From IMG/VR virus record IMGVR_UViG_3300029712_000001: DNA of 64,000 nucleotides, one strand, 5' to 3'. Shown here piece after piece: positions 81-62,586 of this stretch. This stretch comes from a virus. Positions within the stretch are counted from its first letter, which is position 1, and each line of letters starts with the position of its first letter. The notes below the pieces were generated by a model. That model searched no databases and was not told the DNA's origin. It worked only from the letters and a program-made list of their open reading frames with translations. The position numbers and the translations under genes are program-made.

Positions 81-150
81 AGTAACTAACCCCATCACCA
101 CTCATTAGTTTTTATATATTTCAAACAGAGGAAAAACGGAGCCGGACAAA

Positions 151-223
151 ATGAAAATATTGGATTCGAACCAATGAAAAGTATTATTACAGAATACCGC
201 GTTATCCACTACGCTAATTTTCG
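151..223 (-). tRNA. tRNA, anticodon GUA (Tyr) with short (class I) variable loop
   Basis: 73 nt. Acceptor CGAAAAU/AUUUUCA pairs 6/7 with a C1-A72 mismatch. D stem GCGU/ACGC, anticodon arm GUAUU-CUGUAAU-AAUAC, 5-nt variable loop, T arm AUUGG-UUCGAAU-CCAAU. Confidence 0.6.
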
Positions 224-7383: not shown

Positions 7384-7435
7384 GCAAAAGAGATTTAATC
7401 ATGGGCTTTCAAAGTGAGCGTAAAATGGCAGATAA

Positions 7436-8182: not shown

Positions 8183-8185
8183 AAT

Positions 8186-8656
8186 TTACGCAAATATATA
8201 AAAAGAATCATTGTGATATATACTACTCTCTGTTGCAGAAGTAATACAATCAACATTTTCATCTGCATTATTAATAAGATCTCTCATTCCATCGTATCTA
8301 TTAGAAAACATAAAAACGTACCTCTGGTCATTTATCTGAAACTTGTATATAATACCCTGTTGTTCACTTGCAGGATACGGGTCAAATCTAATCCATATTG
8401 CCATTGGTTCGTAACCGGTAGAGGTGCTTGAAAACGAAAAAGAAACTGAACTATGAGTATGAATATTAAAGGCCGTTCCTTCTCTAAGTTGATTCAATAC
8501 GCTATTTATCTTATCCTGGCTAATTGTATCGGATTTGATTTTATTCATTAAATTAAATAACCTGATCCTATCTCCAGGCTCGATTTCTGTTTCTGCACAA
8601 TGATAAATAGCTCCATTACCAGATCTCTGTTCTTCAAAATATCTTCTCCTACTCAT
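8186..8656 (-). CDS. hypothetical protein
   Basis: 156-aa ORF with ATG start and an 8-nt overlap with the upstream gene. Confidence 0.5.
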   Translation of the reverse strand: MSRRRYFEEQRSGNGAIYHCAETEIEPGDRIRLFNLMNKIKSDTISQDKINSVLNQLREGTAFNIHTHSSVSFSFSSTSTGYEPMAIWIRFDPYPASEQQGIIYKFQINDQRYVFMFSNRYDGMRDLINNADENVDCITSATESSIYHNDSFYIFA

Positions 8657-11126: not shown

Positions 11127-12019
11127 ACCAATTTAAGTATATTGTCAATTACAGGATACGCCTTAGTATATATTTCAAACTCAGCACGGCGCCGCCTAAG
11201 AGGTTCGTACATGCCTTTTAATGTCATACCCATCATCTTAAGTTCGGTCTTAGCATTTTTCAGCTTAACCAAATCTTGCTGTGCATACAACTTGAACAAA
11301 TCGGCAGCCCCTTGTGCTTCTCCATTATACATCAGTTCCTCAAAGAATCTCATCTTTACAAAATTATCTACATAATCCAATACCAGACCTTGAGGCGTGT
11401 CTGGTATAATTATATTAGATTCTCCGTCAAAGGGAAGAGACCGGTACTGCATGTAAATAGGACCATCGAAATTGGCATACAGGAATCCGTTTACGATATT
11501 TATCTCATACGGACTATCCTTGATTACCTTATTCCGGCATTTACTTAAACAAGAATCACGAAGCATAGGCTTAGCAAGACCTAACATTACCGGCCGGTCA
11601 TAATAGCAACGAACTTCATGATCGCGATCATGAACATTGATATAAAATTTTTCAACTATCACTTTCTCGCATTCGTCTTTACAACATTCATCGCAAGAAC
11701 ACCACCTATAACTTCTTTCGGTACGTTCTTTCCAAGCTATTGTATTTTGAAGTTCTGATATCACCTTGTCACCTTCCGGCACCTCATATCCTTTAAAATC
11801 GCATTTAAAAGCCAGAATAAGATCAAAGTAATCACCAGGCATACGGGCCTGCCCTCGCTTGACATCCACTACCGCTTCTTTGCGCATAGTAATATCGCCT
11901 CCAAACTTCTTCAGGGCAATTTCTATCCATTTGTAGATGGATACCTCATCTATCAGATCACGCTTGTCAAATGATCTTAAAGACGATTTTAACTCTATGA
12001 TATAATTTTCGACTGTCAT
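11123..12019 (-). CDS. hypothetical structural-module protein, Cys-rich centre
   Basis: 298 aa with ATG start and the motif WCSCDECCKDECEK. A -7 box and a terminator lie directly upstream. Confidence 0.45.
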   Translation of the reverse strand: MTVENYIIELKSSLRSFDKRDLIDEVSIYKWIEIALKKFGGDITMRKEAVVDVKRGQARMPGDYFDLILAFKCDFKGYEVPEGDKVISELQNTIAWKERTERSYRWCSCDECCKDECEKVIVEKFYINVHDRDHEVRCYYDRPVMLGLAKPMLRDSCLSKCRNKVIKDSPYEINIVNGFLYANFDGPIYMQYRSLPFDGESNIIIPDTPQGLVLDYVDNFVKMRFFEELMYNGEAQGAADLFKLYAQQDLVKLKNAKTELKMMGMTLKGMYEPLRRRRAEFEIYTKAYPVIDNILKLV

Positions 12020-18500: not shown

Positions 18501-20048
18501 AGATGTGAAAGGAGCACCAACAACATCTTGTTCGGTTACAGTAATCTTAGACCCTACCTGACCTTCATTACAATCGTTTTTGGTAAATTCTTCACTGTAT
18601 TTACCAGTCCACGTACAATGGCCGTCCCGGTTGGCTATGGCCTGGCCCTGCTGCTCGACGGCAGCCTGAGCGAGCGCGTTAGCCGCCTCCTGGCTTTCGT
18701 ATGAAGTAAAAGGACCACCGGTTACATCATCTTGGTCTACTGTTACCTGCGAACCTACGCCTTCTCCGTCGCAATTGTCTTTTGTGAATACCTTGCTATA
18801 TACACCAACAAATTGGTTTTTATCTATGCAAGTGCCTTTCTTATTTGCAAGATCCTGTTTCTGTTCTTCCATAGCAGCCTGAGCGAGCGCGTTAGCCGCC
18901 TCCTGGCTTTCCCTTGATACAAAAGCATCCGGGTATCCAGCAAGATCCTTTTCAGTTAAATCGACAAAGCTTCCGGTCTGAGATTCAGCATCGCAATCAT
19001 TTTTCTGAACACGAGCCGAAGCCTTTCCGACGAAATAATTTGGATCAGTAACGCATTCTCCATTCAGGTTTGCCTGATCCTGACCATTTTTCTCTACATC
19101 ATCAAGAGCTTTCTGATCAGCATCTTCTTGACTTACGTCTGATGTGTATTTACCGGCTTCTACCGTGTAAGTGTAAGGTGCTCCGATAAACCCATCTTCG
19201 CAGTCATTCTTATAAAATACTTTCGACTTCTCTACGTTATACCATAAATTAGTTTCACAGGTGCCATGCTCATTAGCATACCCTGGACCTTCAGCTTCCA
19301 AGGCTTCCAAAGCCTTCTGATTAGCATCCTCCTTAGAAACAGAAGAAGAGAAACGGCCGGCTTCTACAACGTACTCTACCATAGATCCAACTTCAGTCAC
19401 CTCACAATCTGTCTTTTGGAACATTTTGGATTTCCTGTCGTTGTACCATTTTATGGTATTGCAAGTGCCATGAGAATTAGCATAGTCTTGACCTTTGGCA
19501 TTCAACTCGGCTTCAGCCTTACGGTCAGCATCCTCTTGGCTTATGGAAGAAGAGAACTGCCCGGCTTCGATCGTCATCGTAACCAAACTTCCTTCTTCGG
19601 TATCAGGATCGCAGTCGTTCTTTCTAAACGACTTTGATTTCTTGACATTGTACCATAATATGGTTATACAACGACCATGCTCATTAACCCAGTTCTGACC
19701 ATTTTGCTCAATGTCTCTCATAGCCTTGTCATCAGCATCAGACTGAGATATGATAGACGTGTATTTTCCGGCCTCAACAACATACTCAAGCTCTTCCCCT
19801 TTCTCTGTTTCAGGATTACATCCTTCTTTTGTGAAAAGAGCTGACTGTCTTTTATTTCTATAAACTACCTGTTCTTTTTTTTTATGAACTAACGTATATT
19901 CTTCAGATACGCTACCGTCCCTGGAAGACACCCTTATCTTGACACTTCTGTTGGCACCAGTATCATTTTCATCAAAGTAAATATTAACCTTACTGTTAAG
20001 ACCGCCTTCTTTCTTATCTATGTTCGCCCAACAATTATCTACTTTCAT
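15537..20048 (-). CDS. giant repeat-containing fibre/decoration protein with BACON-like modules
   Basis: 1503 aa. About 14 tandem ~70-aa units fit Y.K.F.KNDC....GS.V...V.AG.F.S..SQEDAD.KA......GQ..AN..G.C. The N-terminus and two C-proximal modules (PSWCSV..ANTTSSSRSGDIVFVQNESGKTVTLSITQ; PSWVTE..ANSSSSSRSGTVTLKQNESGKTVNITVNQ) look BACON-like. Confidence 0.6.
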   Translation of the reverse strand: MKVDNCWANIDKKEGGLNSKVNIYFDENDTGANRSVKIRVSSRDGSVSEEYTLVHKKKEQVVYRNKRQSALFTKEGCNPETEKGEELEYVVEAGKYTSIISQSDADDKAMRDIEQNGQNWVNEHGRCITILWYNVKKSKSFRKNDCDPDTEEGSLVTMTIEAGQFSSSISQEDADRKAEAELNAKGQDYANSHGTCNTIKWYNDRKSKMFQKTDCEVTEVGSMVEYVVEAGRFSSSVSKEDANQKALEALEAEGPGYANEHGTCETNLWYNVEKSKVFYKNDCEDGFIGAPYTYTVEAGKYTSDVSQEDADQKALDDVEKNGQDQANLNGECVTDPNYFVGKASARVQKNDCDAESQTGSFVDLTEKDLAGYPDAFVSRESQEAANALAQAAMEEQKQDLANKKGTCIDKNQFVGVYSKVFTKDNCDGEGVGSQVTVDQDDVTGGPFTSYESQEAANALAQAAVEQQGQAIANRDGHCTWTGKYSEEFTKNDCNEGQVGSKITVTEQDVVGAPFTSTVSQDDANNKAKAAVKEQGQAIANSKGNCENMTVYTGHYSKRFVPECEACHKGVEMEVTAEMVNGSPVTSTESQDAADAEARRIVEEGGQAYVNKNGNCTPLSTDPVWEDVVPEELRCNEGKSQKKQHDTNECSETHNQERWVDGGNKVCSWTGHYSETFQKNDCEIPDSGTEVEVSEADVEGNPFTSFVSQEDADNKAKEAVKAQGQAIANQKGKCRFVGVYSKQFTKDNCGSCHHGVPMSVTQDMVGGPFYSNESQEEANRLAQEAVEAQGQAYVNKNGTCEMDNTDPVWVDSEPLETKCEGGKSYKKQVNTNECYGGADERWVEGGDKVCTWTGTYSKQFTKQCADGGVGSKVTIDQDDVTGGPFTSTVSQEDANSKAQAAVEQQGQALADAQGTCTWTGKASKVFTRNNCGSCQHGSSVTVTQDQVGGPFTSNISQADANKKAQDAVNSQGQAVANKNADCLPDSTTPSWSDTGSTRCDGCTSQKQQRDTNPCSSSYNDTRWVNGGGESCTDWSYYGTGDCVGHTQYNAYRDSCSGSIDRQYSVSCRNCCNCGSYGSWQENGCNGTKTKFIRYDDCGNSDTKEEYVIGSCGYAPYEFQFHDGRTSKSRSVTGESQDIKEVIISTKNDSYIGYSVKSKPSWCSVDYRDQTSESMKAVVTLSANTTSSSRSGDIVFVQNESGKTVTLSITQDVAVTYEFSTNQSTWNADANGGTNNSYLCIQLKSKKNGSKIGYTVSSKPSWVTEVTEKPSGVNCPVLSGYDYSFVIISSANSSSSSRSGTVTLKQNESGKTVNITVNQEGKAEAKPVPAHITLKNGSWATYRKNNVSYNPGAGKCIAGFEWTSDENGNIRIYTCDIKVVDADYREISGATISIGTTTQRKQSGSSCSYFGAVMGGILAGYVHSGDENGDTTWYIRTINVSYEGKVYKTATVRQYEKQNISKKGGIFNVYNESPASYNFIVDGAECGDENGTLKYAYSQMDLNPA

Positions 20049-20815
20049 TCACTAACCCTCCATCTTAAATTTTTGGGAGTTGTACTTACGTTGATTACCT
20101 CAGAAGATCCATCGGAATCAAGATCAACAACATCCTTGTCCAGGTGAATTTCCTCCTTATCCACAGACTCGCATTCAACTATTTCAATAACATAATCTTT
20201 TATATTACTTTCTATACTTAACTGCGTGCTTGTTTCATCACCCTCAACCTGTTCAAATTCCTTATCCAATTTGATGTAAGGAACAACCTTTCCGGGTTGA
20301 TAGATAGGAATCAGTACACCATTTATAGTTATATTCTCATTAACTTCATCCCCATCCTCATTATCAGGCATGGAAACAATCATCGAAACCTGGAACGTGT
20401 CTTCAAGACCCGGATCACCAGGGAAACCATAATCAAGCCTAATATCATTGACGTCAATATTAAGACTGGAAGCGGTGGTAAATGCTTTTATGACACCCTT
20501 TATATCTTTCTCACCTGTAATAAGGGCATTGATAGAAGCGGCGTTGGTAGTAATAAGGATCTGCTTGTCTCCACCAGATATAGGGAACTCCAGCCTGCTA
20601 ACCGAGACTTCTGTGATCTTAATGCCTTTTTGCCTGAAAGTAATAGCTTTCATACTTTCAGTATCGGATTTCTTCACAATTCGGATAGTGATCCTGTCTT
20701 CCCTTCCTTTCCAAGATGGAGCATCGAAATTCATTTTATCACGACCGACACCTTCCTTCTTGTCCGAGGTAAGCCAAGAACCATCATCCATCTTATATAT
20801 TCTTTCTTTGCTCAT
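20045..20815 (-). CDS. fibre-associated protein with BACON/Ig-like modules
   Basis: 256 aa with an ATGA overlap to the downstream giant gene. The N-terminal segment GSWLTSDKKEGVGRDKMNFDAPSWKGREDRITIRIVKK has a BACON-like pattern. Confidence 0.45.
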   Translation of the reverse strand: MSKERIYKMDDGSWLTSDKKEGVGRDKMNFDAPSWKGREDRITIRIVKKSDTESMKAITFRQKGIKITEVSVSRLEFPISGGDKQILITTNAASINALITGEKDIKGVIKAFTTASSLNIDVNDIRLDYGFPGDPGLEDTFQVSMIVSMPDNEDGDEVNENITINGVLIPIYQPGKVVPYIKLDKEFEQVEGDETSTQLSIESNIKDYVIEIVECESVDKEEIHLDKDVVDLDSDGSSEVINVSTTPKNLRWRVSE

Positions 20816-20830
20816 AATAACCCTCCTTTA

Positions 20831-21217
20831 TTAAAGTGTCAGTTCCCATTCAACGCCATCATCTACCACAACCTGTACCGTAGCCGTACCACCTGTGGCT
20901 TCAAATGTTATGTCAGTAGGAATAACGTCAAATATCTCTTGTACCCCTACACATCCTAAACCACAGATAATGTCCTTAAACCATTCCTCTTTAGCATATT
21001 TTTTAAGAACCTCTTTAAAGAACTCACGAAGCCAATCTGAATCAATAGATTCCTTAAGTATGGTTTCTATTATCTCCTTAAGCCAAGATTCGTGCATTTC
21101 CTCTTTTAGAATCTCTTTAATAAGCTCGATAATAGTTTCTTTATCTAACTTATCAGAAGGCACAGAGCCATCAACGAGATTACCCCCGCATATAAATCCT
21201 TTGCATTTTTCTGCCAT
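20831..21217 (-). CDS. hypothetical protein with W-x-K/R-E-I/F heptad repeats
   Basis: 128 aa with ATG start. The segment ESWLKEIIETILKESIDSDWLREFFKEVLKKYAKEEWFKDI carries the repeats. Confidence 0.45.
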   Translation of the reverse strand: MAEKCKGFICGGNLVDGSVPSDKLDKETIIELIKEILKEEMHESWLKEIIETILKESIDSDWLREFFKEVLKKYAKEEWFKDIICGLGCVGVQEIFDVIPTDITFEATGGTATVQVVVDDGVEWELTL

Positions 21218-21233
21218 TTCTTATCCTCCTAAA

Positions 21234-21659
21234 TTAACAATGGAACCCATAAGAACTATTTGCCTCTTCTCGGTACACGACCCTCACTTCAGCAAATTCA
21301 TCTTGTTGACACATATCCCGGCAGAACCTAACAGTACGGCCCTGGACTTTATACATATCAGAAGGTACGACACCTCCGCAATAAGATACAAGCAAAATCT
21401 CTGCCGGATCCTTCTTTAGAACCACATGAGAAGTACCGTCAAATACTTCCGTATTGACAGATCCACTTACGTTAATAGCCCTTGAAACGTATTTAGCTAA
21501 ATTAGCCAAAGCCCTGTTTAAAGGCATACCATGATACAAACCAGCTTCTTCTATAGTTTCCCCATCATAGAATATTTTAGAAGAAGGAATATCGCAATGA
21601 TGCGGGCGTTCGCACCCACCATGACTGCCAAAACAACCGTTGTTACCTGTTATTGCCAT
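21234..21659 (-). CDS. hypothetical Cys/His-rich N-terminus protein
   Basis: 141 aa with ATG start and the motif GCFGSHGGCERPHHC. Confidence 0.45.
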   Translation of the reverse strand: MAITGNNGCFGSHGGCERPHHCDIPSSKIFYDGETIEEAGLYHGMPLNRALANLAKYVSRAINVSGSVNTEVFDGTSHVVLKKDPAEILLVSYCGGVVPSDMYKVQGRTVRFCRDMCQQDEFAEVRVVYREEANSSYGFHC

Positions 21660-21921
21660 TATTGCTTAAAATATTTATTTTTTGTTTTAAAAATTCTATT
21701 TCCCCATCCTGATATTCCATACGGCATATCATTGCATTGATTAAAGCCGTAAGATCAGATTTCTGAGCCAGACTGAAGTAGCCAGCGTTAATGCCGTCAG
21801 CGCAGTACACGCAGTTCGTGCAGGTGTATCCGTCCGGGCATGGCACCGGCGTTTCGTCCACATGTGGAACATATACGTGTTTACCACTTAAGTCCTTACC
21901 AATTTGTGCACTCTTTTCCAT
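21643..21921 (-). CDS. small Cys-rich plus coiled-coil protein
   Basis: The track start at 21948 is TTG; the first ATG is at 21921. Motif PCPDGYTCTNCVYC is followed by a heptad region. Confidence 0.4.
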   Translation of the reverse strand: MEKSAQIGKDLSGKHVYVPHVDETPVPCPDGYTCTNCVYCADGINAGYFSLAQKSDLTALINAMICRMEYQDGEIEFLKQKINILSNNGNNR

Positions 21922-22252
21922 TTTGAAGTTGTTTTTCAAGTTGTTCAACCCTTTGTTTTAGAAGCGTATTTTCTTCAACTATCCTATCCAAAAACTTATC
22001 TATGTTTTCAAAAACCAGTTCTATATTATGCATAACCTCATTATAAGGCATACCTGGAGTTAATTTGGATATGAATGTCTTGCATCCTGTATAATGAATG
22101 CAATGATCGCTTAAATGACCATACGGGCAATCGCATTCTTTTGGAAGAATCTCGCAATTGTCCGTACAGTCATTACATGGATCAGACCCGATACAAATAT
22201 TAGATCTCAGAATATCAGGTCTGTCATCTTTACAAGTGTTACATGAGTTCAT
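21896..22252 (-). CDS. small Cys-rich plus coiled-coil protein
   Basis: The track start at 22315 is TTG and overlaps the HNH stop; the first ATG is at 22252. Motifs CNTC..CNDCTDNCEILPKECDC are followed by LLKQRVEQLEKQL. Confidence 0.4.
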   Translation of the reverse strand: MNSCNTCKDDRPDILRSNICIGSDPCNDCTDNCEILPKECDCPYGHLSDHCIHYTGCKTFISKLTPGMPYNEVMHNIELVFENIDKFLDRIVEENTLLKQRVEQLEKQLQNGKECTNW

Positions 22253-22311
22253 GACTTTCTTTTTTTTTGGTGCAAGATAATAATTTTCATTCACACCATC
22301 ACAATGAGAAG

Positions 22312-22974
22312 TCAATCAATGTATTCTATGTTATTATTCGCATTTTTTTTCTTTTTAAGCCTGTATTCTTTTCCGTACTTTTTTTGACACTCTTTGCACA
22401 TATACTGATAGCCATGACCCTTTATGTAATAAAATTCAGATACAGATTTCACCTCGTTGCATGCATTACATTTTTTTGCAGTCCTATCTCTCTTATAAGG
22501 CAATATCCCATTATCGTTCCAGTCCGATAAAGCTTTGTCGTATGCATTTCTTGCATCTTCAACATCACAAAACACACCTAAATGATATTGTATCTTATTT
22601 ATCTGAATGCAAGCACCATATTTATTTATCTTCTCAAAGTAATGCACTCCCCTTCCGTATTTTGAAACCTTTGACCTACATATATTCTCTCTATTTGTGA
22701 GTTTTCTTAAATTACTAAGATTATTATTTAACTTATTATTGTCTATATGATCTATTACCAAATCATCTTTTACCTTACCATTAAAAGACTCATATACTAT
22801 CCTATGCACCCTCATTTTGCTCTTTCCACTCTTAACACTTGAAAGCGTCACCTCCTCGTAACCATATATATTAATACGAGTCTTCATTACAGTTCCTTTT
22901 TTAATATTGAAAATAATACCAGTATCACTTACTGCATATATACCTTCATACCCAACAACATTAATGACATTCAT
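22312..22974 (-). CDS. HNH homing endonuclease (NUMOD4 / HNH / AP2-like architecture)
   Basis: The N-terminus MNVINVVGYEGIYAVSDTG is NUMOD4-like. VHRIVYESF..IDHIDNNKLNNNLSNLR is the HNH core. GVHYFEKINKYGACIQINKIQYHLGVF..EDARNAYDKA is AP2-like, and a C-terminal CxxC..CxxC follows. The track's TTG start at 23001 was replaced by the ATG at 22974. Confidence 0.8.
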   Translation of the reverse strand: MNVINVVGYEGIYAVSDTGIIFNIKKGTVMKTRINIYGYEEVTLSSVKSGKSKMRVHRIVYESFNGKVKDDLVIDHIDNNKLNNNLSNLRKLTNRENICRSKVSKYGRGVHYFEKINKYGACIQINKIQYHLGVFCDVEDARNAYDKALSDWNDNGILPYKRDRTAKKCNACNEVKSVSEFYYIKGHGYQYMCKECQKKYGKEYRLKKKKNANNNIEYID

Positions 22975-23055
22975 ATAGCATTTATCGTATTTATACGGCA
23001 AATATAATAATTACTACGATTAAAATAATAAATTATTCGGATTTGTTTTAATGTA

Positions 23056-23113
23056 ATTCAGATTACGAGGCGAACAATTGCCATTGTTCGCATTACCGCC
23101 GAAACGAGCAGCC
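23056..23113 (-). repeat. DGR-like template repeat (TR), non-coding copy
   Basis: 58 nt homologous to 23520-23577. It carries AAY at all six codons that differ. The copy sits behind in-frame stops and runs to a TAA at 23030-23032. Confidence 0.6.
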
Positions 23114-23269
23114 AATTCTTTTTAACCTTTTTCTCAACCGTTATTTGCTATTTCAGAGGTCAGATCCCAATGTAAAACTTGTTAGCAGACTAACGGATTT
23201 CATTGAATAGATTTTTATTGTTTATAATGTTAACTATCTCTGTTGTCTAATGACATTGCAAATGTATGT

Positions 23270-23342
23270 ATAATATTTTATAGCTACAAAACAATTTGTA
23301 TTAAATATTTTAAATTTTTGTTTTGTGGCTATAAAATATTAT
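23270..23342. repeat. long near-perfect palindrome (25-nt arms, 23-nt loop)
   Basis: ATAATATTTTATAGCTACAAAACAA and TTGTTTTGTGGCTATAAAATATTAT pair at 24/25 positions; the single exception is a G-T pair. Confidence 0.8.
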
Positions 23343-23353
23343 ATTAACAAGAT

Positions 23354-23436
23354 ACGGCTGCGCCGTGATATAGTATATAAGGCTGCGCCTTAGCGCTGCG
23401 CTTATGATGGCTGCGCCATCAATGGGTTGCACCCAT
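23354..23436 (-). repeat. array of five GC mini-hairpins (core GGCTGCGCC)
   Basis: The five units are ACGGCTGCGCCGT, AAGGCTGCGCCTT, AGCGCTGCGCT, ATGGCTGCGCCAT and ATGGGTTGCACCCAT. The flanking dinucleotides covary to keep pairing. The last unit touches the stop codon at 23436-23438. Confidence 0.75.
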
Positions 23437-23493
23437 CAAACCTGCGGTTGACTGACGTCTAATAACAACTGGGCAAGGCCGCAATTGCTGCGA
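23436..23493 (-). other. 3' tail of the fibre gene downstream of the variable region (GC-rich)
   Basis: Encodes ..SRSNCGLAQLLLDVSQPQV*. This is a relatively GC-rich stretch between the VR and the hairpin array, where a DGR IMH-type element would be expected. Confidence 0.3.
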
Positions 23494-25493
23494 GACGTAT
23501 GAGAAGCGGCGTAATTCGCATACAGAAAACGAGGCGAACAATAGCCATGGGGCGCATAACCGCCGAAACGAGCAGCCACTCTGGACTTTATACCAACAGA
23601 TGAAGCCCAGTAGCAGTTGTCCCATGTATAAAAACATTCTCCTGAATTATAATTTCCTCCCTTTTTACCCTTCCATCCGGTATAAGGGATACGATGTAAA
23701 ACATGACCATCTCCTAAATTTTGGGTAGTTGCTATCTTCTTATATTTGGATTCAAAATCAAAAACCTCACCATTATTTATAGTAGACCTTTTCTCATATG
23801 TCCATTTCTTTTGATCTGGCTCTATATAAATATCAATAGTATTACCTATTCGAGTGACATTAGGATCATTTAAACAAGTCCCTACCTGTTCGTATCCTCC
23901 TCCACAATACCTAAAGACATCTCCAGACAAATTCATGCCATCGTACAAAGACATCCTTAAGATAACTTCCAAATCAAATTCTGCCGGTTCGTCATTTTCG
24001 TTTAAGGCCGATATAGTGCCGGTCATTTCCTTAAACACAATAACATTCATATGACCTTCAACCATACTCTTGGCTCCCTGGACGTTCTTATACCAATATT
24101 TTCCTCCATAAAAATCGAACTCCAATCCTTCCTCTATTCCTGCCTCAAATGCAAAAGAAGCCGCCATCTGGCTTTCCATGCACTGTTCTTTAGGATATTC
24201 TGAATTTATGAGGTAAGAAAAATGAGTTTTTTTAGTAGGTTCATAATGTATAATAGAAGAATTTGTAGCCCATGATCCATACAACCATGTCTCTTCTCCT
24301 TTTTTACGATACTTTACACCTCCGTATTTGCGATAATTAACATCATTACCTACTCCGGAGTTACTTGATATCCCTGATCCAAAAGTATCTGGATTAGCTA
24401 AGTGTTTAGTACCGTACAGCATTTCAAGGTATATGATATAAGCATTCAAGGTCAAAAAACCACCTTCAGAAAAAGGATAAGAAGATTCAGGATCTACGTT
24501 ATTAACCCTCGAATACTTAGCTATATTGATTTGATTTACATCATTGCTTCTCGGATAAGTTCTTCCATTTAAAAACATCGTGCAGGCGTTACCAACTCCG
24601 GCTCCGGATTTACAATTTGTTTCTCCTTCATACAAGAAAAAGAAAGATCTTGCCTTGGAGTCTACTGTACATACCGGTCCAGGAGATAAGGCTGTGGGCG
24701 GAAGCACAGGGCACGTCTGGCGCAGGTCAAGTCCGTCCAGCATAGGAACCGTGTCTGCGTCGTACACACCAGACCATATTTTCCCGCTTTTACCAACTAC
24801 CTTATCAGCTACATACAGACTCTTGCTACATCCTAAGAATATGCTATAATTCTTTGAAGTAGTCTCCCAAGGTCTTAAAATCCTTACCTCTGATCCTGAT
24901 ACATTATAAAGTTTTTGACCAATACCATACTCTTCGTAAAAAGCCTTGGCGTCAAATGCTCCGGCATCACAATACTTATTTTTATGACCGTTATCCAAAT
25001 ACAGTTCCACATCGCATTCGGCTCTCATTTCCTCGGTTATACCTACCGTAGGAGCAAAATCTCCGTTTTCAAATCTAAGGAGATTATTCTTACGAAGCTT
25101 CCCGACCGGACGCACTTTGTCTCCGGTATTTTGAGTCATGTCTATAAGGTAAAAATCCCAAGAAGGGAGAAGGCTTTTGTCGCCAACTGATTCCGTGGCT
25201 TCTGGAGGAAGTTGGTCCTCAGCCCAAGCGGATGCCGATCCTGAAGCACCTTCTTTAAGAACATTGAAAGTATTACCATCAGACAAAACAAAAGGCTCAG
25301 ATTCCTCCCCTTTCTTCGATAAAAACTTTTCCCTTTTACCAACTTGATTAACGACGATGTTCTTCTTAGCCTTATTCCCTTCATCGGAAATAGTGTAATT
25401 CAAAGTCGTATCAAGACCTTCATTTATTTCAGAAAACACCGACACCAGTTTATCATTCTCACCTTCTGTCGGATTAAATTTTACGTTGCTCAT
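23436..25493 (-). CDS. tail-fibre / receptor-binding-type protein carrying the DGR-like variable region
   Basis: The track start is TTG; an ATG lies at 25493. The N-terminus is an Ig/BACON-like module (NPTEGENDKLVSVFSEINEGLDTTLNYTISDEGNKAKKNIVVNQVG). The C-terminal ARFGGYAPHGYCSPRFLY is the VR. Confidence 0.6.
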   Translation of the reverse strand: MSNVKFNPTEGENDKLVSVFSEINEGLDTTLNYTISDEGNKAKKNIVVNQVGKREKFLSKKGEESEPFVLSDGNTFNVLKEGASGSASAWAEDQLPPEATESVGDKSLLPSWDFYLIDMTQNTGDKVRPVGKLRKNNLLRFENGDFAPTVGITEEMRAECDVELYLDNGHKNKYCDAGAFDAKAFYEEYGIGQKLYNVSGSEVRILRPWETTSKNYSIFLGCSKSLYVADKVVGKSGKIWSGVYDADTVPMLDGLDLRQTCPVLPPTALSPGPVCTVDSKARSFFFLYEGETNCKSGAGVGNACTMFLNGRTYPRSNDVNQINIAKYSRVNNVDPESSYPFSEGGFLTLNAYIIYLEMLYGTKHLANPDTFGSGISSNSGVGNDVNYRKYGGVKYRKKGEETWLYGSWATNSSIIHYEPTKKTHFSYLINSEYPKEQCMESQMAASFAFEAGIEEGLEFDFYGGKYWYKNVQGAKSMVEGHMNVIVFKEMTGTISALNENDEPAEFDLEVILRMSLYDGMNLSGDVFRYCGGGYEQVGTCLNDPNVTRIGNTIDIYIEPDQKKWTYEKRSTINNGEVFDFESKYKKIATTQNLGDGHVLHRIPYTGWKGKKGGNYNSGECFYTWDNCYWASSVGIKSRVAARFGGYAPHGYCSPRFLYANYAASHTSRSNCGLAQLLLDVSQPQV
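23520..23577 (-). repeat. DGR-like variable region (VR)
   Basis: Identical to the TR except for 8 substitutions, all at TR adenines. Confidence 0.6.
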
Positions 25494-25495
25494 TT

Positions 25496-26134
25496 TCAAA
25501 AATCAAATTTGCATTCATCAACAACAGGCTCGCATTTGGTATTTTCATTAACCCATTTCATGCCCTCTTCTTCCAGTATCTTCTTAGCCTTTTCATTGGC
25601 ATCATCAACGCTAATGAAAGACGTTACGGTACCGGCGTATATCCTCCTATATTTCTCAGGAGCCTTCCATCCTTCCTTACAACGCTTACTAAACCAACCA
25701 TGTTGATCTTCGTTGTAATAAACGGTTTTACATACTCCAGATTCGTTAGCGGCAGCCTGCCCTTCTTGCTCAAGAATCTTCGCAGCTTCGTAGTTGGCTA
25801 TTTCGGTACTGAACTTAGACCATACACGCCCGGCCTCTACCACGTGATGTGTGGGTTGTTCTTGTTTTTGACCATCAGGACAATCATTTTTAAAGAAATC
25901 CCCTTCCTGTCTTGTGTTATAATATACCTCGCAACATCCACCTACTTTATTAGCATACAACGGACCTTCTTTATCCGCAAACTCTTCCGCTTTCCTATCT
26001 GCATCATCTTGGCTTATATCCGAACAAAATTCAGCCTCATGAACGATAAACGTTTCTCCAGAACCAAGATCTTCCGGACAGTCCGATTTCTTGAAAGCTT
26101 TTCTGTATTCTTTGTTGTAATACATCTTTTTCAT
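25496..26134 (-). CDS. 3x 'SQ[ED]DAD' repeat protein (paralog of the repeats in the 1503-aa gene)
   Basis: 212 aa with three units such as FKKSDCPEDLGSGETFIVHEAEFCSDISQDDADRKAEEFADKEGPLYANKVGGC. Confidence 0.55.
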   Translation of the reverse strand: MKKMYYNKEYRKAFKKSDCPEDLGSGETFIVHEAEFCSDISQDDADRKAEEFADKEGPLYANKVGGCCEVYYNTRQEGDFFKNDCPDGQKQEQPTHHVVEAGRVWSKFSTEIANYEAAKILEQEGQAAANESGVCKTVYYNEDQHGWFSKRCKEGWKAPEKYRRIYAGTVTSFISVDDANEKAKKILEEEGMKWVNENTKCEPVVDECKFDF

Positions 26135-26382
26135 GACAAGATCTTATTAAGTTCTTCTTTGAATTTCTGAATCTCGTCCGGGCACAACCCGCATTTCCCT
26201 TCACATACGATTCTTCTCATACGATCTATTTTAAGAACTGTATCCATATCAGGCTTGATACCTACCTTATACTTATGATATTGTAGATACTGATCAGCCT
26301 TACATGCTATAAAACGATCAGCACACTCACATAAGTAAGATGAAGGGAAAAGAATTTGCTGTGTACTTCCGGTAGCTGACAT
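26131..26382 (-). CDS. small Cys-rich protein
   Basis: 83 aa with ATG start and a 4-nt overlap with the downstream gene. Confidence 0.4.
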   Translation of the reverse strand: MSATGSTQQILFPSSYLCECADRFIACKADQYLQYHKYKVGIKPDMDTVLKIDRMRRIVCEGKCGLCPDEIQKFKEELNKILS

Positions 26383-26383
26383 A

Positions 26384-26710
26384 TTATTTCACGGTAAAAT
26401 ACCTGGCGTATTCTTTATTTATGTATTCAGAATAAGTAGCAAGATCATCCGGATCTGGGCACTCGTTCTTCAAATTAACAATCCAGCCTCTTACCAGCTT
26501 TTGAATATCAGCATACCTTTTACTTACACCTCCTACAAACCTGAACTTGCGATGAAGGTCTATGATTTTCTTGTCCAATACAGCAAGTTCATCGTATTTC
26601 TGAATACAAGCCGCATTAGAATCAGCTTTAGGTGTCGTATTCGACTGAGGCTTTATAGCCCTATTTCTATTAACAGAAGTAATATTACTTCTTCCACATC
26701 CACATCCCAT
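26384..26710 (-). CDS. hypothetical protein (N-terminus MGCGCG)
   Basis: 108 aa with ATG start. Confidence 0.4.
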   Translation of the reverse strand: MGCGCGRSNITSVNRNRAIKPQSNTTPKADSNAACIQKYDELAVLDKKIIDLHRKFRFVGGVSKRYADIQKLVRGWIVNLKNECPDPDDLATYSEYINKEYARYFTVK

Positions 26711-26731
26711 AACTTATTTATATTTAATTAA

Positions 26732-27610
26732 TTACATTTTGCAACCACAATTTTCACAATTATTGAGAACGTAAATCAATTTAGATGCTTTTTCGTATAA
26801 TTGTTTTACGTTTTCAAAATTCCCTAATCTCATATTAGCTTCAGCCGCAGCCAGCAGAAACTCTATTTCTTTTATTTTGTCAATAACGTCATCATCCTCA
26901 TGATCACATAACACAGTTGACCTGGCCCATATCTTATCTATGTTAAGACGGATCAGATCTGTTTTTAAATACTTTCTGTTAAATGAATAAGAGGAAGGAC
27001 TGCCTTTTATGGTAATATCGTATATACCATCTTTTAGGTTTTCAAAATCATTTCCACGACCTGGATTTATGCCAAGGGTCTTACTGTTGAATACATTCAA
27101 CTGATTCTTACCAAGATAATAAACATACTTATTCTCGTCTTCAGGTGGCACAATCTCTATAATAGCCGGTCTGTCTGCCAGTATCCCCCATTCCGACTGA
27201 TCGGCTATGCGAAGCGTTTTAGGGTTGTTGGTGCTTATAACCTCAAAATCAAGATGGATGTTGTTCATACTCTCCTCCCATCCCATTCTGGCAAGGGAAT
27301 CATCGTATCTGGCTGTTATATCAGCTCCCTCTACCTCAGTGCTATTAACACGTACCTCGGTACCATTTATCTTGACTCCTACTATTTGGGCTACCAACGA
27401 CTTAGCCATACCAAACATAGGAACAATGATTTCCCCGTTATAATCAGTTCCTTCATTTGGATACTGTACTACTTCCGTCTTGTACAGGCCATCATTTCTT
27501 CTGACTACTATTCTAATAACCATCTGATTTTCTACATCGTAGTCGGTCATTACTATCCTGACATAGAAAATGTTATTTCTTATCTGTGGTAAAATATCGA
27601 TATAATTCAT
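26732..27610 (-). CDS. hypothetical tail-module protein
   Basis: 292 aa with ATG start, a -7 box upstream and a C-terminal CENCGC. Confidence 0.45.
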   Translation of the reverse strand: MNYIDILPQIRNNIFYVRIVMTDYDVENQMVIRIVVRRNDGLYKTEVVQYPNEGTDYNGEIIVPMFGMAKSLVAQIVGVKINGTEVRVNSTEVEGADITARYDDSLARMGWEESMNNIHLDFEVISTNNPKTLRIADQSEWGILADRPAIIEIVPPEDENKYVYYLGKNQLNVFNSKTLGINPGRGNDFENLKDGIYDITIKGSPSSYSFNRKYLKTDLIRLNIDKIWARSTVLCDHEDDDVIDKIKEIEFLLAAAEANMRLGNFENVKQLYEKASKLIYVLNNCENCGCKM

Positions 27611-27624
27611 AACTTACCTTTTTC

Positions 27625-27634
27625 CACAAAGATA
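27625..27634 (-). promoter_or_regulatory. -7 promoter box TATCTTTGTG
   Basis: Lies 15-24 nt upstream of the ATG at 27610. Confidence 0.5.
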
Positions 27635-27693
27635 AGTAAATGGGGTGATAAAAGTTTAAAATGTTGTGTATTAAATAAAATAGGACGTGATTA

Positions 27694-28161
27694 TTACCAT
27701 ATCCGATAATAGATTCCAGCGCCTAAGTAGGGGGAGAAGCCCTCGCGCCCAACCCCATACCCTGCCGTCAGTCCTATGCCCCAGCGCCGGCTCTTTTCAT
27801 ATATTATTTCTTTTTTGTGGTAGATGATCATCGTGTCTAAATTAGGTCTGTATCCGCTTATAACAGCCCGATAATCATCTGTTTTGTATGTTTTTCTTTG
27901 TATAGGAATATTGATATAAACAGTGTCTCTTATCGTATCTTTTTCAACTATAGCATCCATAGGGAAAGGTGTTTCTACCTCCCCTACGTCAACTATATAC
28001 TGAGGAACAGGAACAGGTTGGATAATGGTATCTATTACAGTATCTATTTTTATATCGTATATTATTTCTTGTTTCTTGCATGTTTTACCAAACAAGAAAG
28101 ATATAAAACACAGTAGAAGAACTCCTAACACATGCCTGGCTCTCATTTTTTGCAAACACAT
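27694..28161 (-). CDS. signal-anchored envelope protein, possible spanin-like lysis accessory
   Basis: 155 aa with an N-terminal hydrophobic anchor and a Gly/aromatic C-terminus (GIGLTAGYGVGREGFSPYLGAGIYYRIW). It lies last in the lysis cassette. Confidence 0.35.
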   Translation of the reverse strand: MCLQKMRARHVLGVLLLCFISFLFGKTCKKQEIIYDIKIDTVIDTIIQPVPVPQYIVDVGEVETPFPMDAIVEKDTIRDTVYINIPIQRKTYKTDDYRAVISGYRPNLDTMIIYHKKEIIYEKSRRWGIGLTAGYGVGREGFSPYLGAGIYYRIW

Positions 28162-28730
28162 CTTTTACCCTCCTTATCTTCGTCTAAAAGTTCTTGTATA
28201 TCACCGTTGTTAATACCTTCTTTAAGCTCTTCTCCGAATGGAACTTTTTGCCACCAACTTACTTTGCTAAAGAAATACTTAACACCTTTTACTATCATCA
28301 AATCAGGTGCAAGGTCGCCGAGGCGTTTGAATGCCATTCCACCGTATAATATTAAGGCGAATATCGTAATCCACTGAAGAAGCATGTCTATAAACTCTGG
28401 GGATTTATGCCCTCCCATAGACATAATAAGATCCATTCCGGATATGGTAAACAGCCCGAAAGAGCAGGCCGCGAACTCAAGAAGGATTTTCAAAACTCCA
28501 ATTTCGCTTATGCATGTCAATATCTTAAAAGGCCTCTTTCTCTTTCTTCGGATATAGCAGTGTTTGATACTTTTTATAGTAGCTAACAAAAGATTTATAG
28601 CTAATATAAACAATATAGAATATATAAGGTGGTGAATCTCCTGGAAATTCATCCACAATGCTGATAATCCGGAAATGAGAAAAGCCCAGAAACTTTCTAA
28701 ATTCATCCTTCCTACAAATCTGTAAGCCAT
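28143..28730 (-). CDS. multi-pass membrane protein, putative holin
   Basis: 195 aa with about four TM spans and a charged C-terminus. It lies immediately downstream of the endolysin. Confidence 0.4.
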   Translation of the reverse strand: MAYRFVGRMNLESFWAFLISGLSALWMNFQEIHHLIYSILFILAINLLLATIKSIKHCYIRRKRKRPFKILTCISEIGVLKILLEFAACSFGLFTISGMDLIMSMGGHKSPEFIDMLLQWITIFALILYGGMAFKRLGDLAPDLMIVKGVKYFFSKVSWWQKVPFGEELKEGINNGDIQELLDEDKEGKRCVCKK

Positions 28731-28731
28731 A

Positions 28732-29193
28732 TTAGAACATAGTTACTTTCTTGCTACTTCCAAGAGAGTCATATACGTCAATATGGACCCAATTGGTACC
28801 TGATTCTAATCTAATGGGACAAGGAAGTAAATCCTGTGACTGAATTATTTTATTCCTTGTCTCTTCTGCCGTCATACCCTTGGCATCAAAATCGATGGCT
28901 GCCCCAAGCATATGAGGACTGATATACAAAGACCCTGATACGGTCTTGGATTTTACTATGTCTGAGATATTGTTCCTAAACCCACGCTCATCAAACCTTC
29001 CGCCCGACTTCCAGGTATTAACCGTCATCGGAGTTTTCAAAATGTCTTTCCTTAAAACCAGTATCGTGTGAAGCAACTCAGTTCTTAAATACCTCCAGCA
29101 AAGATCTTTGTCTCTACCGTACTCTTTAGGACCAACTAATTCAACAATACTAAAATACTGACTCAATTCTTTTATAATATCACTTCTTTCCAT
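28732..29193 (-). CDS. endolysin, zinc D-Ala-D-Ala/L-Ala-D-Glu peptidase (M15-like)
   Basis: Motifs SGGRFDERGFR, SPHMLGAAIDFD and WVHIDV match the H-x6-D...H metal ligands of the VanY/M15 family. Confidence 0.7.
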   Translation of the reverse strand: MERSDIIKELSQYFSIVELVGPKEYGRDKDLCWRYLRTELLHTILVLRKDILKTPMTVNTWKSGGRFDERGFRNNISDIVKSKTVSGSLYISPHMLGAAIDFDAKGMTAEETRNKIIQSQDLLPCPIRLESGTNWVHIDVYDSLGSSKKVTMF

Positions 29194-50002: not shown

Positions 50003-50009
50003 GACAAAA

Positions 50010-62370: not shown

Positions 62371-62371
62371 C

Positions 62372-62583: not shown

Positions 62584-62586
62584 CAT

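What the first reader, a model, noticed from the sequence alone, without database searches (positions are those of the whole stretch)
23056..23577. Adenine-only mismatched repeat pair: DGR template/variable-region signature in a fibre gene, with no reverse transcriptase in 64 kb
The two copies, read on the coding (minus) strand, are as follows. Copy at 23113->23056: G GCT GCT CGT TTC GGC GGT AAT GCG AAC AAT GGC AAT TGT TCG CCT CGT AAT CTG AAT. Copy at 23577->23520, inside the 3' end of the 685-aa gene: G GCT GCT CGT TTC GGC GGT TAT GCG CCC CAT GGC TAT TGT TCG CCT CGT TTT CTG TAT. Over 58 nt there are 8 mismatches, and every one falls on an adenine of the non-coding copy, which has 12 A in 58 nt. 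If mismatches were placed at random, the chance of all eight hitting an A is about (12/57)^8, on the order of 1e-6. All six differing codons are AAY (Asn) in the non-coding copy: GGNANNGNCSPRNLN versus GGYAPHGYCSPRFLY. AAY-rich template, A-specific divergence and a VR in the last ~45 codons of a receptor-binding-type protein together define a diversity-generating retroelement. What is odd is that the repeat is short, that homology stops abruptly on the 3' side, and that I find no RT (YxDD) or Avd-like ORF anywhere in the window. The possibilities are a trans-acting RT elsewhere in the genome, a fossil DGR, or an unconventional arrangement in a crAss-like phage.
Basis: partly seen in the sequence, partly recalled or inferred. 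Interest (0 to 1): 0.85.

Follow-up and report, generated by a model that had tools for sequence, protein, structure and literature searches.

The report
Hypermutation cassette disabled by selfish endonuclease
The repeat pair is a genuine footprint of a diversity-generating retroelement (DGR) in the receptor-binding protein gene of an epsilon crAss-like gut phage. In this genome a mobile HNH endonuclease gene has replaced the reverse transcriptase and the end of the template, so the cassette cannot run on its own.

Summary
A 59-nt direct repeat (23056-23114 vs 23520-23578) has 8 mismatches, all at adenines of the downstream copy (p = 2e-7).

It is a real DGR variable region (VR) plus a 5' stub of its template repeat (TR). 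The published relative crAssE-Sib (OR575929.1) is 97% identical on both sides. At this site it has target gene-VR-IMH, a 96-nt TR-IMH*, and a 465-aa reverse transcriptase (RT).

In the window, 1,527 bp are replaced by a 729-bp cassette encoding an HNH_3/NUMOD4 endonuclease. The lost DNA is the TR 3' end, IMH* and all but the last 15 nt of the RT gene. The HNH ORF ends on the RT's last four codons and stop. The window's VR still carries adenine-only changes at TR positions the stub no longer holds.

In IMG/VR, 244 contigs encode the target protein, 134 an RT relative and about 31 the HNH allele. Identical HNH cassettes sit in flanks as diverged as the population average; identical RT cassettes do not. 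The HNH ORF is under purifying selection (pN/pS 0.13). This indicates an actively spreading homing endonuclease gene.

Every HNH-type genome has a unique VR. Whether these VRs are frozen or rewritten in trans is unresolved. The DGR and its frequent RT loss are published; the HNH replacement is not.

The parts
23436..25493 (-). DGR target gene: receptor-binding / tail-fibre protein (685 aa from the ATG; the ORF lister extends it to a TTG at 25499)
   Evidence: ORF list. It is 97% identical and collinear with WOZ57270.1 'putative tail fiber protein' of crAssE-Sib. 244 IMG/VR contigs encode a relative. No Pfam family matches. A C-type-lectin fold is published for the orthologue (PMC11054128).
23484..23579 (-). 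Variable repeat (VR), 96 nt, the last ~32 variable-region codons of the target gene
   Evidence: Coordinates transferred from the relative's annotated VR (L001 6781-6876 + 16703). There are 13 mismatches to the TR of the nearest RT-bearing neighbours, all 13 at TR adenines, including TR positions 66-91 that are absent from the window's own TR stub. Population variation is confined to TR-A positions.
23468..23483 (-). IMH (initiation of mutagenic homing) at the 3' end of the VR, intact
   Evidence: Transferred from the relative's annotation. It is identical between window and relative. It differs from IMH* at the positions that set directionality (positions 109-113).
23352..23438 (-). Array of 4-5 short GC-rich hairpins with the core GGCGCAGCC just after the target gene's stop codon; candidate DGR target-recognition hairpins or a terminator array
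   Evidence: Four copies of a 13-nt direct-repeat motif. The DNA fold of 23340-23490 gives -28.8 kcal/mol with z = -3.18. The role is inferred by analogy with the BPP-1 hairpin/cruciform requirement (PMC3240598). The loops here are 3 nt, not the GRNA tetraloop.
23269..23343 (.). Long AT-rich inverted repeat (26-nt arms, 96% complementary) in the VR-TR spacer
   Evidence: the repeat finder I1. Its function was not tested.
23056..23115 (-). Template-repeat stub: the 5' ~59-60 nt of a 96-nt TR
   Evidence: Identical (one C>T difference) to the first 59 nt of the relative's annotated TR; homology ends at 23056/23055. The C>T is also present in the window's VR and in the TR of RT-bearing neighbours.
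22327..23055 (-). 729-bp HNH cassette that takes the place of 1,527 bp (TR positions 60-96, IMH*, the TR-RT spacer and RT codons 1-461) of the intact allele
   Evidence: blastn breakpoints against the relative. The same cassette sits at the same site in 31 IMG/VR contigs and 7 metagenome contigs. Cassette divergence is 0.2-0.4% within the window's subtype, against 4.4% in the adjacent target gene.
22312..22974 (-). HNH homing-endonuclease gene (220 aa from ATG 22974)
   Evidence: Pfam HNH_3 (1.2e-15) and NUMOD4 (2.1e-6). pN/pS is 0.12-0.14 and the ORF is intact in 30 of 31 copies. The nearest named homologues are phage HNH homing endonucleases at <=39% identity.
22312..22326 (-). Remnant of the RT gene: its last four codons (EYID) and stop codon, now the C-terminus of the HNH ORF
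   Evidence: Junction alignment. The RT ends ...NRLEYID* and the HNH ORF ends ...NNNIEYID*. Identity with the relative resumes at GAATACATTGATTGA.

Best explanation
This locus is the target end of a genuine diversity-generating retroelement in an epsilon crAss-like (Epsilonunovirus-type) gut phage. Its VR and IMH are intact in the 3' end of the receptor-binding protein gene. In an ancestor, an adjacent 96-nt TR and a DGR reverse transcriptase rewrote the VR with adenine-specific mutagenesis. In this genome the donor half is destroyed. A 729-bp cassette carrying a free-standing HNH (HNH_3 + NUMOD4) homing-endonuclease gene replaces TR positions 60-96, the IMH*, the TR-RT spacer and RT codons 1-461. 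That leaves a 59-nt TR stub upstream. The HNH ORF is fused in frame to the RT's last four codons and stop, in the RT's position and orientation, so it probably uses the former TR-RT transcription unit (inferred).

The cassette is a presence/absence allele in the phage population. It behaves as a mobile element that converts RT-bearing alleles by very local gene conversion. Most likely the endonuclease cuts the intact TR/RT allele during co-infection and the break is repaired from the HNH allele (inferred, not shown).

The DGR of this genome is therefore non-autonomous. Without an RT and without the TR 3' end and IMH*, the stub cannot template anything. The window's VR is a record written by a full-length TR before the conversion. 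Each HNH-type genome has its own VR because each descends from a different RT-bearing recipient.

Shown: the anatomy, the allelic replacement, the population polymorphism, the island-of-identity pattern and selection on the HNH ORF. Inferred: endonuclease-driven homing, the cleavage target, and that the VR is now frozen.
For: 1. The repeat is real and the mismatches are A-specific.
2. The relative crAssE-Sib is 96.9-97.6% identical on both sides and carries annotated VR/IMH/TR/IMH*/RT. The window's 22327-23055 replaces its 1,527 bp. The relative's RT matches RVT_1 and shows YADD.
3. Against the full TR of the nearest RT-bearing neighbours, the window VR has 13 of 13 TR-body mismatches at A, five of them beyond the stub. 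A C>T TR polymorphism is shared by the window's TR stub and VR.
4. The full TR has 12 AAY codons holding 24 of its 25 A.
5. Across 82 genomes VR entropy is 1.47-1.48 bits at TR-A positions against 0.10-0.11 elsewhere. L005 (RT intact) and L008 are identical over ~6.9 kb upstream but differ at 5 VR positions, all TR-A.
6. There is no RT and no second TR/VR in the window. The relative's genome has exactly one RT, one TR, one VR and no HNH homologue in the 150,000 of 151,256 nt read.
7. HNH_3 and NUMOD4 domains are present. pN/pS is 0.12-0.14 and 30 of 31 ORFs are intact.
8. Copies at >=96% aa occur only at this locus, in ~31 of the 244 target-encoding IMG/VR contigs. The next homologues are <=46% identical.
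9. HNH-type genomes are not a clade. Fifty-two HNH pairs with cassettes differing by <=1 of 729 nt have background-level flank divergence: spacer 1.4-2.7%, and +300-600 nt downstream 2.3%. RT pairs with identical cassettes have near-identical flanks: spacer 0-0.1%, and target gene 0.6-2.6% against 4-9% background. Cassettes differ by <=2 nt in 88 HNH pairs (19% of the 465 pairs among 31 genomes), against 18 of 1,128 RT pairs (1.6%).
Against: Endonuclease activity and a cleavage site in the RT allele are untested. About 87 kb of this phage's genome lies outside the window, so a second RT cannot be excluded for this particular genome. No same-strain pair of HNH genomes from demonstrably independent samples was found, so 'VR frozen after conversion' is not shown. 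The four identical pairs found may be re-assemblies of the same data. The window and L099 are identical from 382 nt before the VR to 43 nt after the cassette, except for 3 scattered differences and 17 in the VR, 16 of them at A. That pattern would equally fit diversification after RT loss. The two upstream junction subtypes (TR broken after position 59 or 67) are not explained in detail. All comparison genomes are metagenome assemblies.
Confidence: 0.8

Rival explanations
1. Orphan but live target. The VR of HNH-type genomes is still being rewritten in trans, either by the TR-RNA/RT complex of co-infecting RT-bearing relatives or by an RT and TR encoded in the unseen part of the genome. The locus would then be a free-riding DGR target rather than a fossil.
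For: The VR, the IMH and the downstream hairpins are intact. In BPP-1, a phage deleted for avd-TR-brt accepts mutagenic homing from a donor supplied in trans, and IMH plus hairpin suffice as a target (PMC3240598). All 31 distinct HNH-type genomes have unique VRs, as diverse as those of RT-bearing genomes: 62% against 59% of A positions differ. Window and L099 differ almost only in the VR within ~1.7 kb. In L024/L099, L007 and L073 the TR stub and the VR disagree at non-A TR markers. RT-bearing and HNH alleles co-circulate.
Against: It is not needed. Cassette-identical HNH genomes also differ at background level in the spacer and target gene, which DGR activity cannot change. So different recipients already explain the different VRs. 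Stub/VR discordance at non-A sites is also seen in RT-bearing genomes. The complete relative has no second RT or TR. None of the 80 listed RT loci lies on an HNH-type contig (54 further RT loci were not listed).
Confidence: 0.2
2. Passive relic. The RT was replaced once, or twice, by illegitimate recombination. The HNH allele has since been shuffled among backgrounds only by the general homologous recombination that makes these genomes mosaic, with no endonuclease-driven homing.
For: The genomes are clearly mosaic: near-identical target genes go with 1-4% diverged neighbours. The downstream junction is the same in all copies, and over 0.7-2 kb downstream the HNH genomes are about half as diverse as RT genomes. 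Both points fit a single origin. Other, non-endonuclease routes of RT loss occur at the same locus, including frameshifts, deletions and a TnpB-like insertion.
Against: General recombination should treat RT and HNH cassettes alike. Yet identical RT cassettes keep near-identical flanks, while identical HNH cassettes sit in background-diverged flanks within <=300 nt. HNH cassettes are about ten times less diverse than RT cassettes (0.2-0.4% for subtype A against 2.08%) in equally diverged genomes. The ORF is under strong purifying selection.
Confidence: 0.15
3. The repeat is a chance match or an ordinary duplication unrelated to a retroelement.
For: It is short (59 nt), no RT lies nearby, and Pfam finds no domain in the target protein.
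Against: All 8 mismatches fall at A (p = 2e-7). The orthologous locus has a full TR and an RT. Adenine-only differences extend to the full ancestral TR. Population hypervariability is restricted to TR-A positions.
Confidence: 0.01
4. Assembly artefact. The HNH allele and the VR come from different co-resident strains and were joined by the assembler across the TR/VR repeat.
For: The comparison genomes, and presumably the window, are metagenome assemblies of mixed populations, and repeats can mis-join.
Against: The same two junctions recur in 38 contigs from several datasets and assemblers. The TR stub and the VR are only 86% identical over 59 nt and lie 464 nt apart in the same order as in the intact allele. 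The junctions that define the replacement lie outside the repeat.
Confidence: 0.03

Closest known systems
DGR of phage crAssE-Sib and other 'Epsilonunovirus' epsilon crAss-like phages (Viruses 2024, 16:513; PMC11054128; GenBank OR575929.1)
   Same: The locus is orthologous. Flanking DNA is 96.9-97.6% identical and the target gene is the same. The VR and IMH sit at the same place, as do the VR-TR spacer and the first 59 nt of the TR. The paper already reports that the RT is fragmented or absent in many members and concludes that those members do not use retrohoming.
   Different: In the window the TR is truncated after position 59, and the IMH* and the RT are gone. An HNH endonuclease gene occupies the RT's place. 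The paper never mentions HNH (0 occurrences). It gives no account of a truncated TR, of cassette mobility, or of VR diversity in RT-less genomes.
Bordetella phage BPP-1 DGR (prototype: mtd VR, TR, avd, brt)
   Same: The substitutions are adenine-specific. The template is AAY-rich (12 AAY codons in the full TR). The VR lies in the last codons of a receptor-binding protein. An IMH sits at the VR 3' end and is followed by GC-rich inverted repeats. In BPP-1 a target lacking cis avd-TR-brt can be written in trans (PMC3240598).
   Different: No avd-like gene is annotated in the relative or detected next to the locus. The family's RT has GxxxSP rather than GxxxSQ (sequence; PMC11054128). The hairpins here are several and have 3-nt loops, not one hairpin with a GRNA tetraloop. 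In this genome the donor half is missing.
Free-standing HNH homing endonuclease genes of phages (the T4 Seg/Mob type of 'intronless homing'; HNH_3/NUMOD4 proteins annotated as HNH homing endonucleases, e.g. in Cellulophaga phage phi19:1)
   Same: It has the HNH_3 + NUMOD4 architecture. It is a presence/absence polymorphism at one fixed site among near-identical genomes. The cassette is far more uniform than its flanks, and the ORF is under purifying selection. The description of T4 intronless homing rests on my own knowledge.
   Different: It does not sit between genes or in an intron. It replaces a 1.5-kb retroelement module, reuses the displaced gene's stop codon, and knocks out a diversity generator. 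Nuclease activity, target site and biased inheritance are untested. The best named homologue is only 39% identical.
Degenerate or incomplete DGRs (orphan VRs, TR/VR pairs without an RT) reported in DGR surveys and in other crAss-like families
   Same: A VR/TR signature without a cis RT. The same population also shows decay by frameshift and deletion. PMC11054128 states that some crAss-like phages contain only DGR fragments.
   Different: Here the cause of RT loss is identifiable, precise and recurrent: a specific mobile endonuclease cassette that accounts for roughly 13% of the genomes.

Membership tests
Diversity-generating retroelement (DGR) | TR/VR repeat pair whose differences fall at adenines of the TR | tested here: met
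   8 of 8 mismatches are at A over the 59-nt stub. 13 of 13 are at A over the full ancestral TR taken from the nearest RT-bearing neighbours.
Diversity-generating retroelement (DGR) | A DGR-type reverse transcriptase encoded next to the TR | tested here: not met
   No RT is present in the 64-kb window (tblastn best E 1.9; motif scan). Only the last 15 nt of the RT gene survive. The feature is met in the orthologous allele: 465 aa, RVT_1 at 2.2e-10, YADD.
Diversity-generating retroelement (DGR) | Full-length TR with IMH* (donor competent for cDNA synthesis and homing) | tested here: not met
   The TR is truncated after position 59 of 96, and the IMH* and the TR-RT spacer are replaced.
Diversity-generating retroelement (DGR) | IMH at the 3' end of the VR, with inverted repeats downstream (recipient competent) | tested here: met
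   The IMH is identical to the relative's annotated IMH. A GC-rich hairpin array starts ~30 nt downstream (z = -3.18). Function was not tested.
Diversity-generating retroelement (DGR) | Hypervariability among related genomes confined to TR-adenine positions | tested here: met
   Entropy is 1.47-1.48 bits at the 26 A positions in both the HNH and the RT-intact groups, against 0.10-0.11 at the 70 other positions. Variable codons show 6-13 different amino acids.
Diversity-generating retroelement (DGR) | VR displayed on a C-type-lectin (or Ig-like) fold of a ligand-binding protein | tested here: inconclusive
Diversity-generating retroelement (DGR) | Accessory gene (avd or HRDC type); common but not universal | tested here: not met
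   No Pfam family matches the small ORFs flanking the locus. None is annotated in the relative.
Free-standing HNH homing endonuclease gene (HEG) | HNH nuclease domain with a NUMOD-type DNA-binding module | tested here: met
   Pfam HNH_3 at 1.2e-15 (57 bits; cutoff 24.8) and NUMOD4 at 2.1e-6 (28 bits; cutoff 23.4).
Free-standing HNH homing endonuclease gene (HEG) | Presence/absence polymorphism at one fixed genomic site among close relatives | tested here: met
   The junctions are the same in 31 IMG/VR contigs and 7 metagenome contigs. The gene is absent from the RT-bearing genomes and from the relative's genome (150,000 of 151,256 nt read).
Free-standing HNH homing endonuclease gene (HEG) | Horizontal spread: the cassette is much younger than its flanks, with short co-conversion tracts | tested here: met
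   Identical cassettes lie in background-diverged flanks within <=300 nt. The control with identical RT cassettes shows linked, near-identical flanks.
Free-standing HNH homing endonuclease gene (HEG) | Site-specific cleavage of the HEG-less allele and biased inheritance | not testable with these tools
   This needs nuclease assays on TR-IMH*-RT DNA and mixed-infection crosses.

The most novel reading that the evidence does not exclude
The HNH gene is a selfish homing endonuclease whose natural target is the intact TR-RT module of a DGR. It would be a genetic parasite of a diversity generator that spreads by converting RT-bearing genomes. Converted phages lose autonomous receptor diversification. 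Either they are short-lived lineages continually replenished by new conversions, or they free-ride on RT-bearing kin that rewrite their intact VR in trans during co-infection.
Probability: 0.35. Interest if true: 0.65.

Novelty: new variant of a known kind. Interest (0 to 1): 0.45.

Why it matters
The DGR itself is published, and so is the fact that many relatives lack the RT. What is new is the cause and the dynamics of the loss. A specific, selected, horizontally spreading HNH endonuclease cassette precisely replaces the donor half of the DGR in roughly one genome in eight of an abundant human-gut phage.

This gives a natural set of near-isogenic RT-bearing and RT-less phages sharing the same target gene. 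With it one could measure in real gut populations what a DGR is worth to a phage. One could also ask whether orphan VRs are frozen or rewritten in trans, and whether selfish endonucleases limit the persistence of DGRs.

It also has a practical lesson. A truncated TR beside an HNH gene should be read as a disabled DGR, not as an unconventional one.

Tried and rejected
1. Structure of the target's C-terminal domain. The single-sequence AlphaFold model had pLDDT 30. A 22-sequence alignment gave pLDDT 51, with the VR segment below 50. Foldseek against the PDB gave no match at E <= 0.001. phmmer against PDB sequences found nothing meaningful (best E 1.4). The first query was out of frame. The fold test is inconclusive, so I rely on the published model.

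2. Test of a frozen VR through same-strain HNH pairs. None was present among the IMG/VR genomes. The metagenome scan added only 7 close copies. The 4 with a VR are identical to contigs already held and are probably re-assemblies.

3. An apparent asymmetry, with ~1 kb of downstream identity in cassette-identical pairs, was an artefact of gap columns. It disappeared when the alignment was projected on window coordinates. I withdrew it.

4. Hitch-hiking upstream of the cassette. Only a slight reduction in spacer diversity was seen.

5. TR-stub/VR discordance at non-adenine markers as a sign of recombination or trans-writing. It also occurs in RT-bearing genomes, so it is not diagnostic.

6. The ~10% diversity pockets in the target gene outside the VR were considered as possible extra VRs. 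They are a few diverged haplotypes, not hypermutation.

7. Rfam gave only tRNAs, with nothing at the locus.

8. A literature search for the record name 'csAssE-Sib' found nothing. The paper spells it crAssE-Sib. A search for DGR together with homing endonuclease found no report of an endonuclease replacing a DGR RT.


Full report
**Observation.** The repeat is there as described. The repeat finder gives 23056-23114 and 23520-23578, 59 nt at 86% identity. On the coding (minus) strand the 8 mismatches all fall at adenines of the downstream, non-coding copy, which has 12 A in 59 nt. The hypergeometric probability is 2.2e-7. The six affected codons are all AAY in that copy. The upstream copy lies in the last ~45 codons of ORF 23436-25499. 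Homology ends abruptly after position 59.

**What the locus is.** A megablast of 21500-26500 against annotated phage records found one record, OR575929.1 (phage 'csAssE-Sib', 151,256 bp, human gut), at 96.6% identity. It has 'VR', 'TR' and 'retron-type reverse transcriptase' annotated under the match. Its order on the coding strand is:
- target gene (685 aa) with a 96-nt VR and a 16-nt IMH;
- a ~350-nt spacer;
- a 96-nt TR with IMH*;
- a 465-aa RT.

Base-level comparison shows that window 23056-29000 is collinear with the relative at 97.6%, and window 19001-22326 at 96.9%. Between them, 729 bp of the window (22327-23055) stand where the relative has 1,527 bp. The lost DNA is TR positions 60-96, the IMH*, the TR-RT spacer and RT codons 1-461.

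The inserted DNA encodes a protein with Pfam HNH_3 (1.2e-15) and NUMOD4 (2.1e-6). Its reading frame runs into the RT's last four codons and stop: RT ...LEYID*, HNH ...IEYID*. The short repeat, the abrupt 3' end of homology and the missing RT are therefore one event.

**The VR was written by a full-length TR.** I aligned the window's VR to the intact TR of the nearest RT-bearing neighbours (L021, L002, L006). There are 13 differences in the TR body, all 13 at TR adenines. Five of them (TR positions 66, 78, 84, 85, 91) lie beyond the end of the window's own stub. The only other differences are the IMH/IMH* positions. A C>T polymorphism at TR position 41 is present in both the window's TR stub and its VR, as expected if the TR was copied into the VR. 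The full TR has 12 AAY codons containing 24 of its 25 adenines.

**No RT in reach.**
- tblastn of the relative's RT against the window gives nothing (best E 1.9).
- There is no other TR or VR copy in the window, and no RT-like YxDD context.
- In the 150,000 of 151,256 nt read, the relative has exactly one RT, one TR, one VR and no homologue of the HNH gene.
- About 87 kb of the window's own genome remain unseen.

**Population survey.** 244 IMG/VR contigs encode the target protein, 134 encode an RT relative and about 31 carry the HNH cassette at >=96% aa identity. All 31 are at this locus, and the next homologues are <=46% identical.

Among the best 80 target loci plus the relative and the window:

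| State downstream of the target gene | Genomes |
|---|---|
| RT intact | 48 |
| HNH replacement | 17 |
| RT frameshifted, truncated or largely deleted | 12 |
| No RT or HNH detected, or contig ends before the locus | 5 |

In some genomes a TnpB-like gene or a plain deletion takes the place of TR and RT. The HNH alleles have two upstream junction subtypes: the TR is broken after position 59 (the window's type A) or after position 67 (type B). They share one downstream junction.

**The DGR is active where the RT is present.** VR variation is confined to TR-A positions: 1.47-1.48 bits at the 26 A positions in both the HNH and the RT-intact groups, against 0.10-0.11 at the 70 other positions. L005 (RT intact) and L008 are identical over ~6.9 kb upstream yet differ at 5 VR positions, all TR-A. 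RT pairs with identical RT cassettes and near-identical flanks differ at 54% of A positions.

**The HNH cassette behaves as a mobile element.** HNH-type genomes are not a clade. Their target-gene bodies differ from each other by 4.4-4.8%, the same as RT-type genomes, and their nearest neighbours are mostly RT-bearing.

| Cassette comparison | Divergence |
|---|---|
| HNH, within type A | 0.2-0.4% |
| HNH, within type B | 1.2-1.35% |
| HNH, type A vs type B | 3.5% |
| RT cassette among RT-bearing genomes | 2.08% |

The decisive contrast compares pairs whose cassettes are essentially identical:

| Region | 52 HNH pairs (cassette <=1 of 729 nt) | Background | 17 RT pairs (cassette <=2 of ~1,527 nt) | Background |
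|---|---|---|---|---|
| TR stub | 1.5% | 2.2% | – | – |
| VR-TR spacer | 1.4-2.7% | 1.6-2.9% | 0-0.1% | 1.6-2.8% |
| Target gene, 0-900 nt before VR | – | – | 0.6-2.6% | 4-9% |
| Downstream +300-600 | 2.3% | 3.1% | – | – |
| Downstream +300-1500 | – | – | 1.0-1.5% | 3-8.5% |

(HNH values; RT values.)

General recombination cannot explain this difference. It is what a homing endonuclease gene with short co-conversion tracts produces. The ORF is intact in 30 of 31 copies, with pN/pS 0.12-0.14, so the protein is maintained by selection. Cleavage of the RT allele, the presumed mechanism, is inferred and not shown.

**The open point.** All 31 distinct HNH-type genomes have different VRs, as diverse as those of RT-bearing genomes. 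The window and L099 are identical from 382 nt before the VR to 43 nt past the cassette, apart from 3 scattered differences and 17 in the VR, 16 of them at A positions.

The simplest account is that each HNH genome descends from a different RT-bearing recipient and its VR has been frozen since. Spacer and target gene differ just as much, so this account is sufficient.

The alternative cannot be excluded. In it, intact VR/IMH targets are rewritten in trans by co-infecting RT-bearing relatives. In BPP-1 a phage lacking avd-TR-brt accepts homing from a donor in trans, and IMH plus a hairpin suffice as a target (PMC3240598). No informative same-strain HNH pairs were found.

**Comparison with what is known.** The relative is described in Viruses 2024, 16:513 (PMC11054128), which reports:
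- a complete DGR;
- an RT with GxxxSP instead of GxxxSQ (visible as G-TPT-SP);

The paper never mentions an HNH gene. A full-text search for DGR together with homing endonuclease found no report of an endonuclease replacing a DGR RT. My own structure predictions were too poor to test the fold.

**Verdict.** The locus is a non-autonomous remnant of a known DGR, not an unconventional DGR. The new element is the precise, recurrent replacement of the DGR's donor half by a horizontally spreading HNH homing-endonuclease cassette. Interest is moderate (0.45). Novelty: a new variant of a known kind.

Noticed in passing
window 46139-50047 (-), insertion at 47432-48548: The large terminase ORF is 1,302 aa against 937 aa in crAssE-Sib because of a 1,117-nt in-frame insertion. 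The insertion matches Pfam Intein_splicing (residues 516-872, 8e-14) and LAGLIDADG_3 (5e-12). It is an intein with its own homing endonuclease, absent from the relative. It is a second selfish endonuclease polymorphism in the same genome.
   Followed up: partly
window ~7416-8232, ~11135-11140 and 63234-63985: The relative's two TnpB (IS605 OrfB) genes are absent at the corresponding window sites. Window 63234-63985 is 76.8% identical to one of them, so a TnpB-like copy sits at a different place.
   Followed up: no
L014 (~1.1-2.3 kb after the VR), L068; L040, L045, L061, L081: There are other ways of losing the DGR donor at the same locus. In some genomes a 407-aa TnpB-like ORF on the opposite strand replaces TR and most of the RT (L014; a fragment in L068). 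In others plain deletions remove TR and RT. Five further genomes have frameshifted RTs.
   Followed up: partly
window 23352-23438 (-): There are four copies of a 13-nt motif with the core GGCGCAGCC, each forming a small GC-rich hairpin, directly after the target gene's stop codon. The DNA fold z-score is -3.18. They are possible DGR target-recognition hairpins, but they are several and have 3-nt loops, unlike the single GRNA-loop hairpin of BPP-1.
   Followed up: partly
window 23269-23343: A 26-nt-arm, 96% complementary AT-rich inverted repeat with a 23-nt loop lies in the spacer upstream of the TR. It may be a terminator or a promoter-region element of the TR transcript. It was not examined.
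   Followed up: no
window ~23580-23879 and ~24180-24479 (target gene, 0-300 and 600-900 nt before the VR): These are pockets of 6-10% diversity among genomes, outside the VR. The one next to the VR was inspected: it consists of a few diverged haplotypes that recombine, not hypermutation. The pocket 600-900 nt upstream was not inspected.
   Followed up: partly
window 15537-20048 (-) and 25496-26134 (-): A 1,503-aa protein has 12 DUF5977 repeats plus BACON domains. A 212-aa protein with 3 DUF5977 repeats lies immediately upstream of the DGR target gene.
   Followed up: no
window 7-223 (-) and 62298-62658 (+): tRNA genes cluster at both ends of the window: two and four Rfam tRNA matches respectively.
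   Followed up: no
L005 vs L008 (IMG/VR contigs 3300029362_000001 and 3300029791_000002): Two contigs from different datasets are identical over ~6.9 kb upstream of the VR but differ at 5 VR positions, all TR-adenine positions. This is a direct snapshot of ongoing DGR activity in an RT-bearing strain.
   Followed up: partly
L001 4811-6208 (relative's RT); paper PMC11054128: The paper is internally inconsistent about which motif the RT carries. The abstract and discussion say GxxxSP; one results sentence says the reverse. The sequence shows G-TPT-SP, i.e. GxxxSP, together with YADD.
   Followed up: yes
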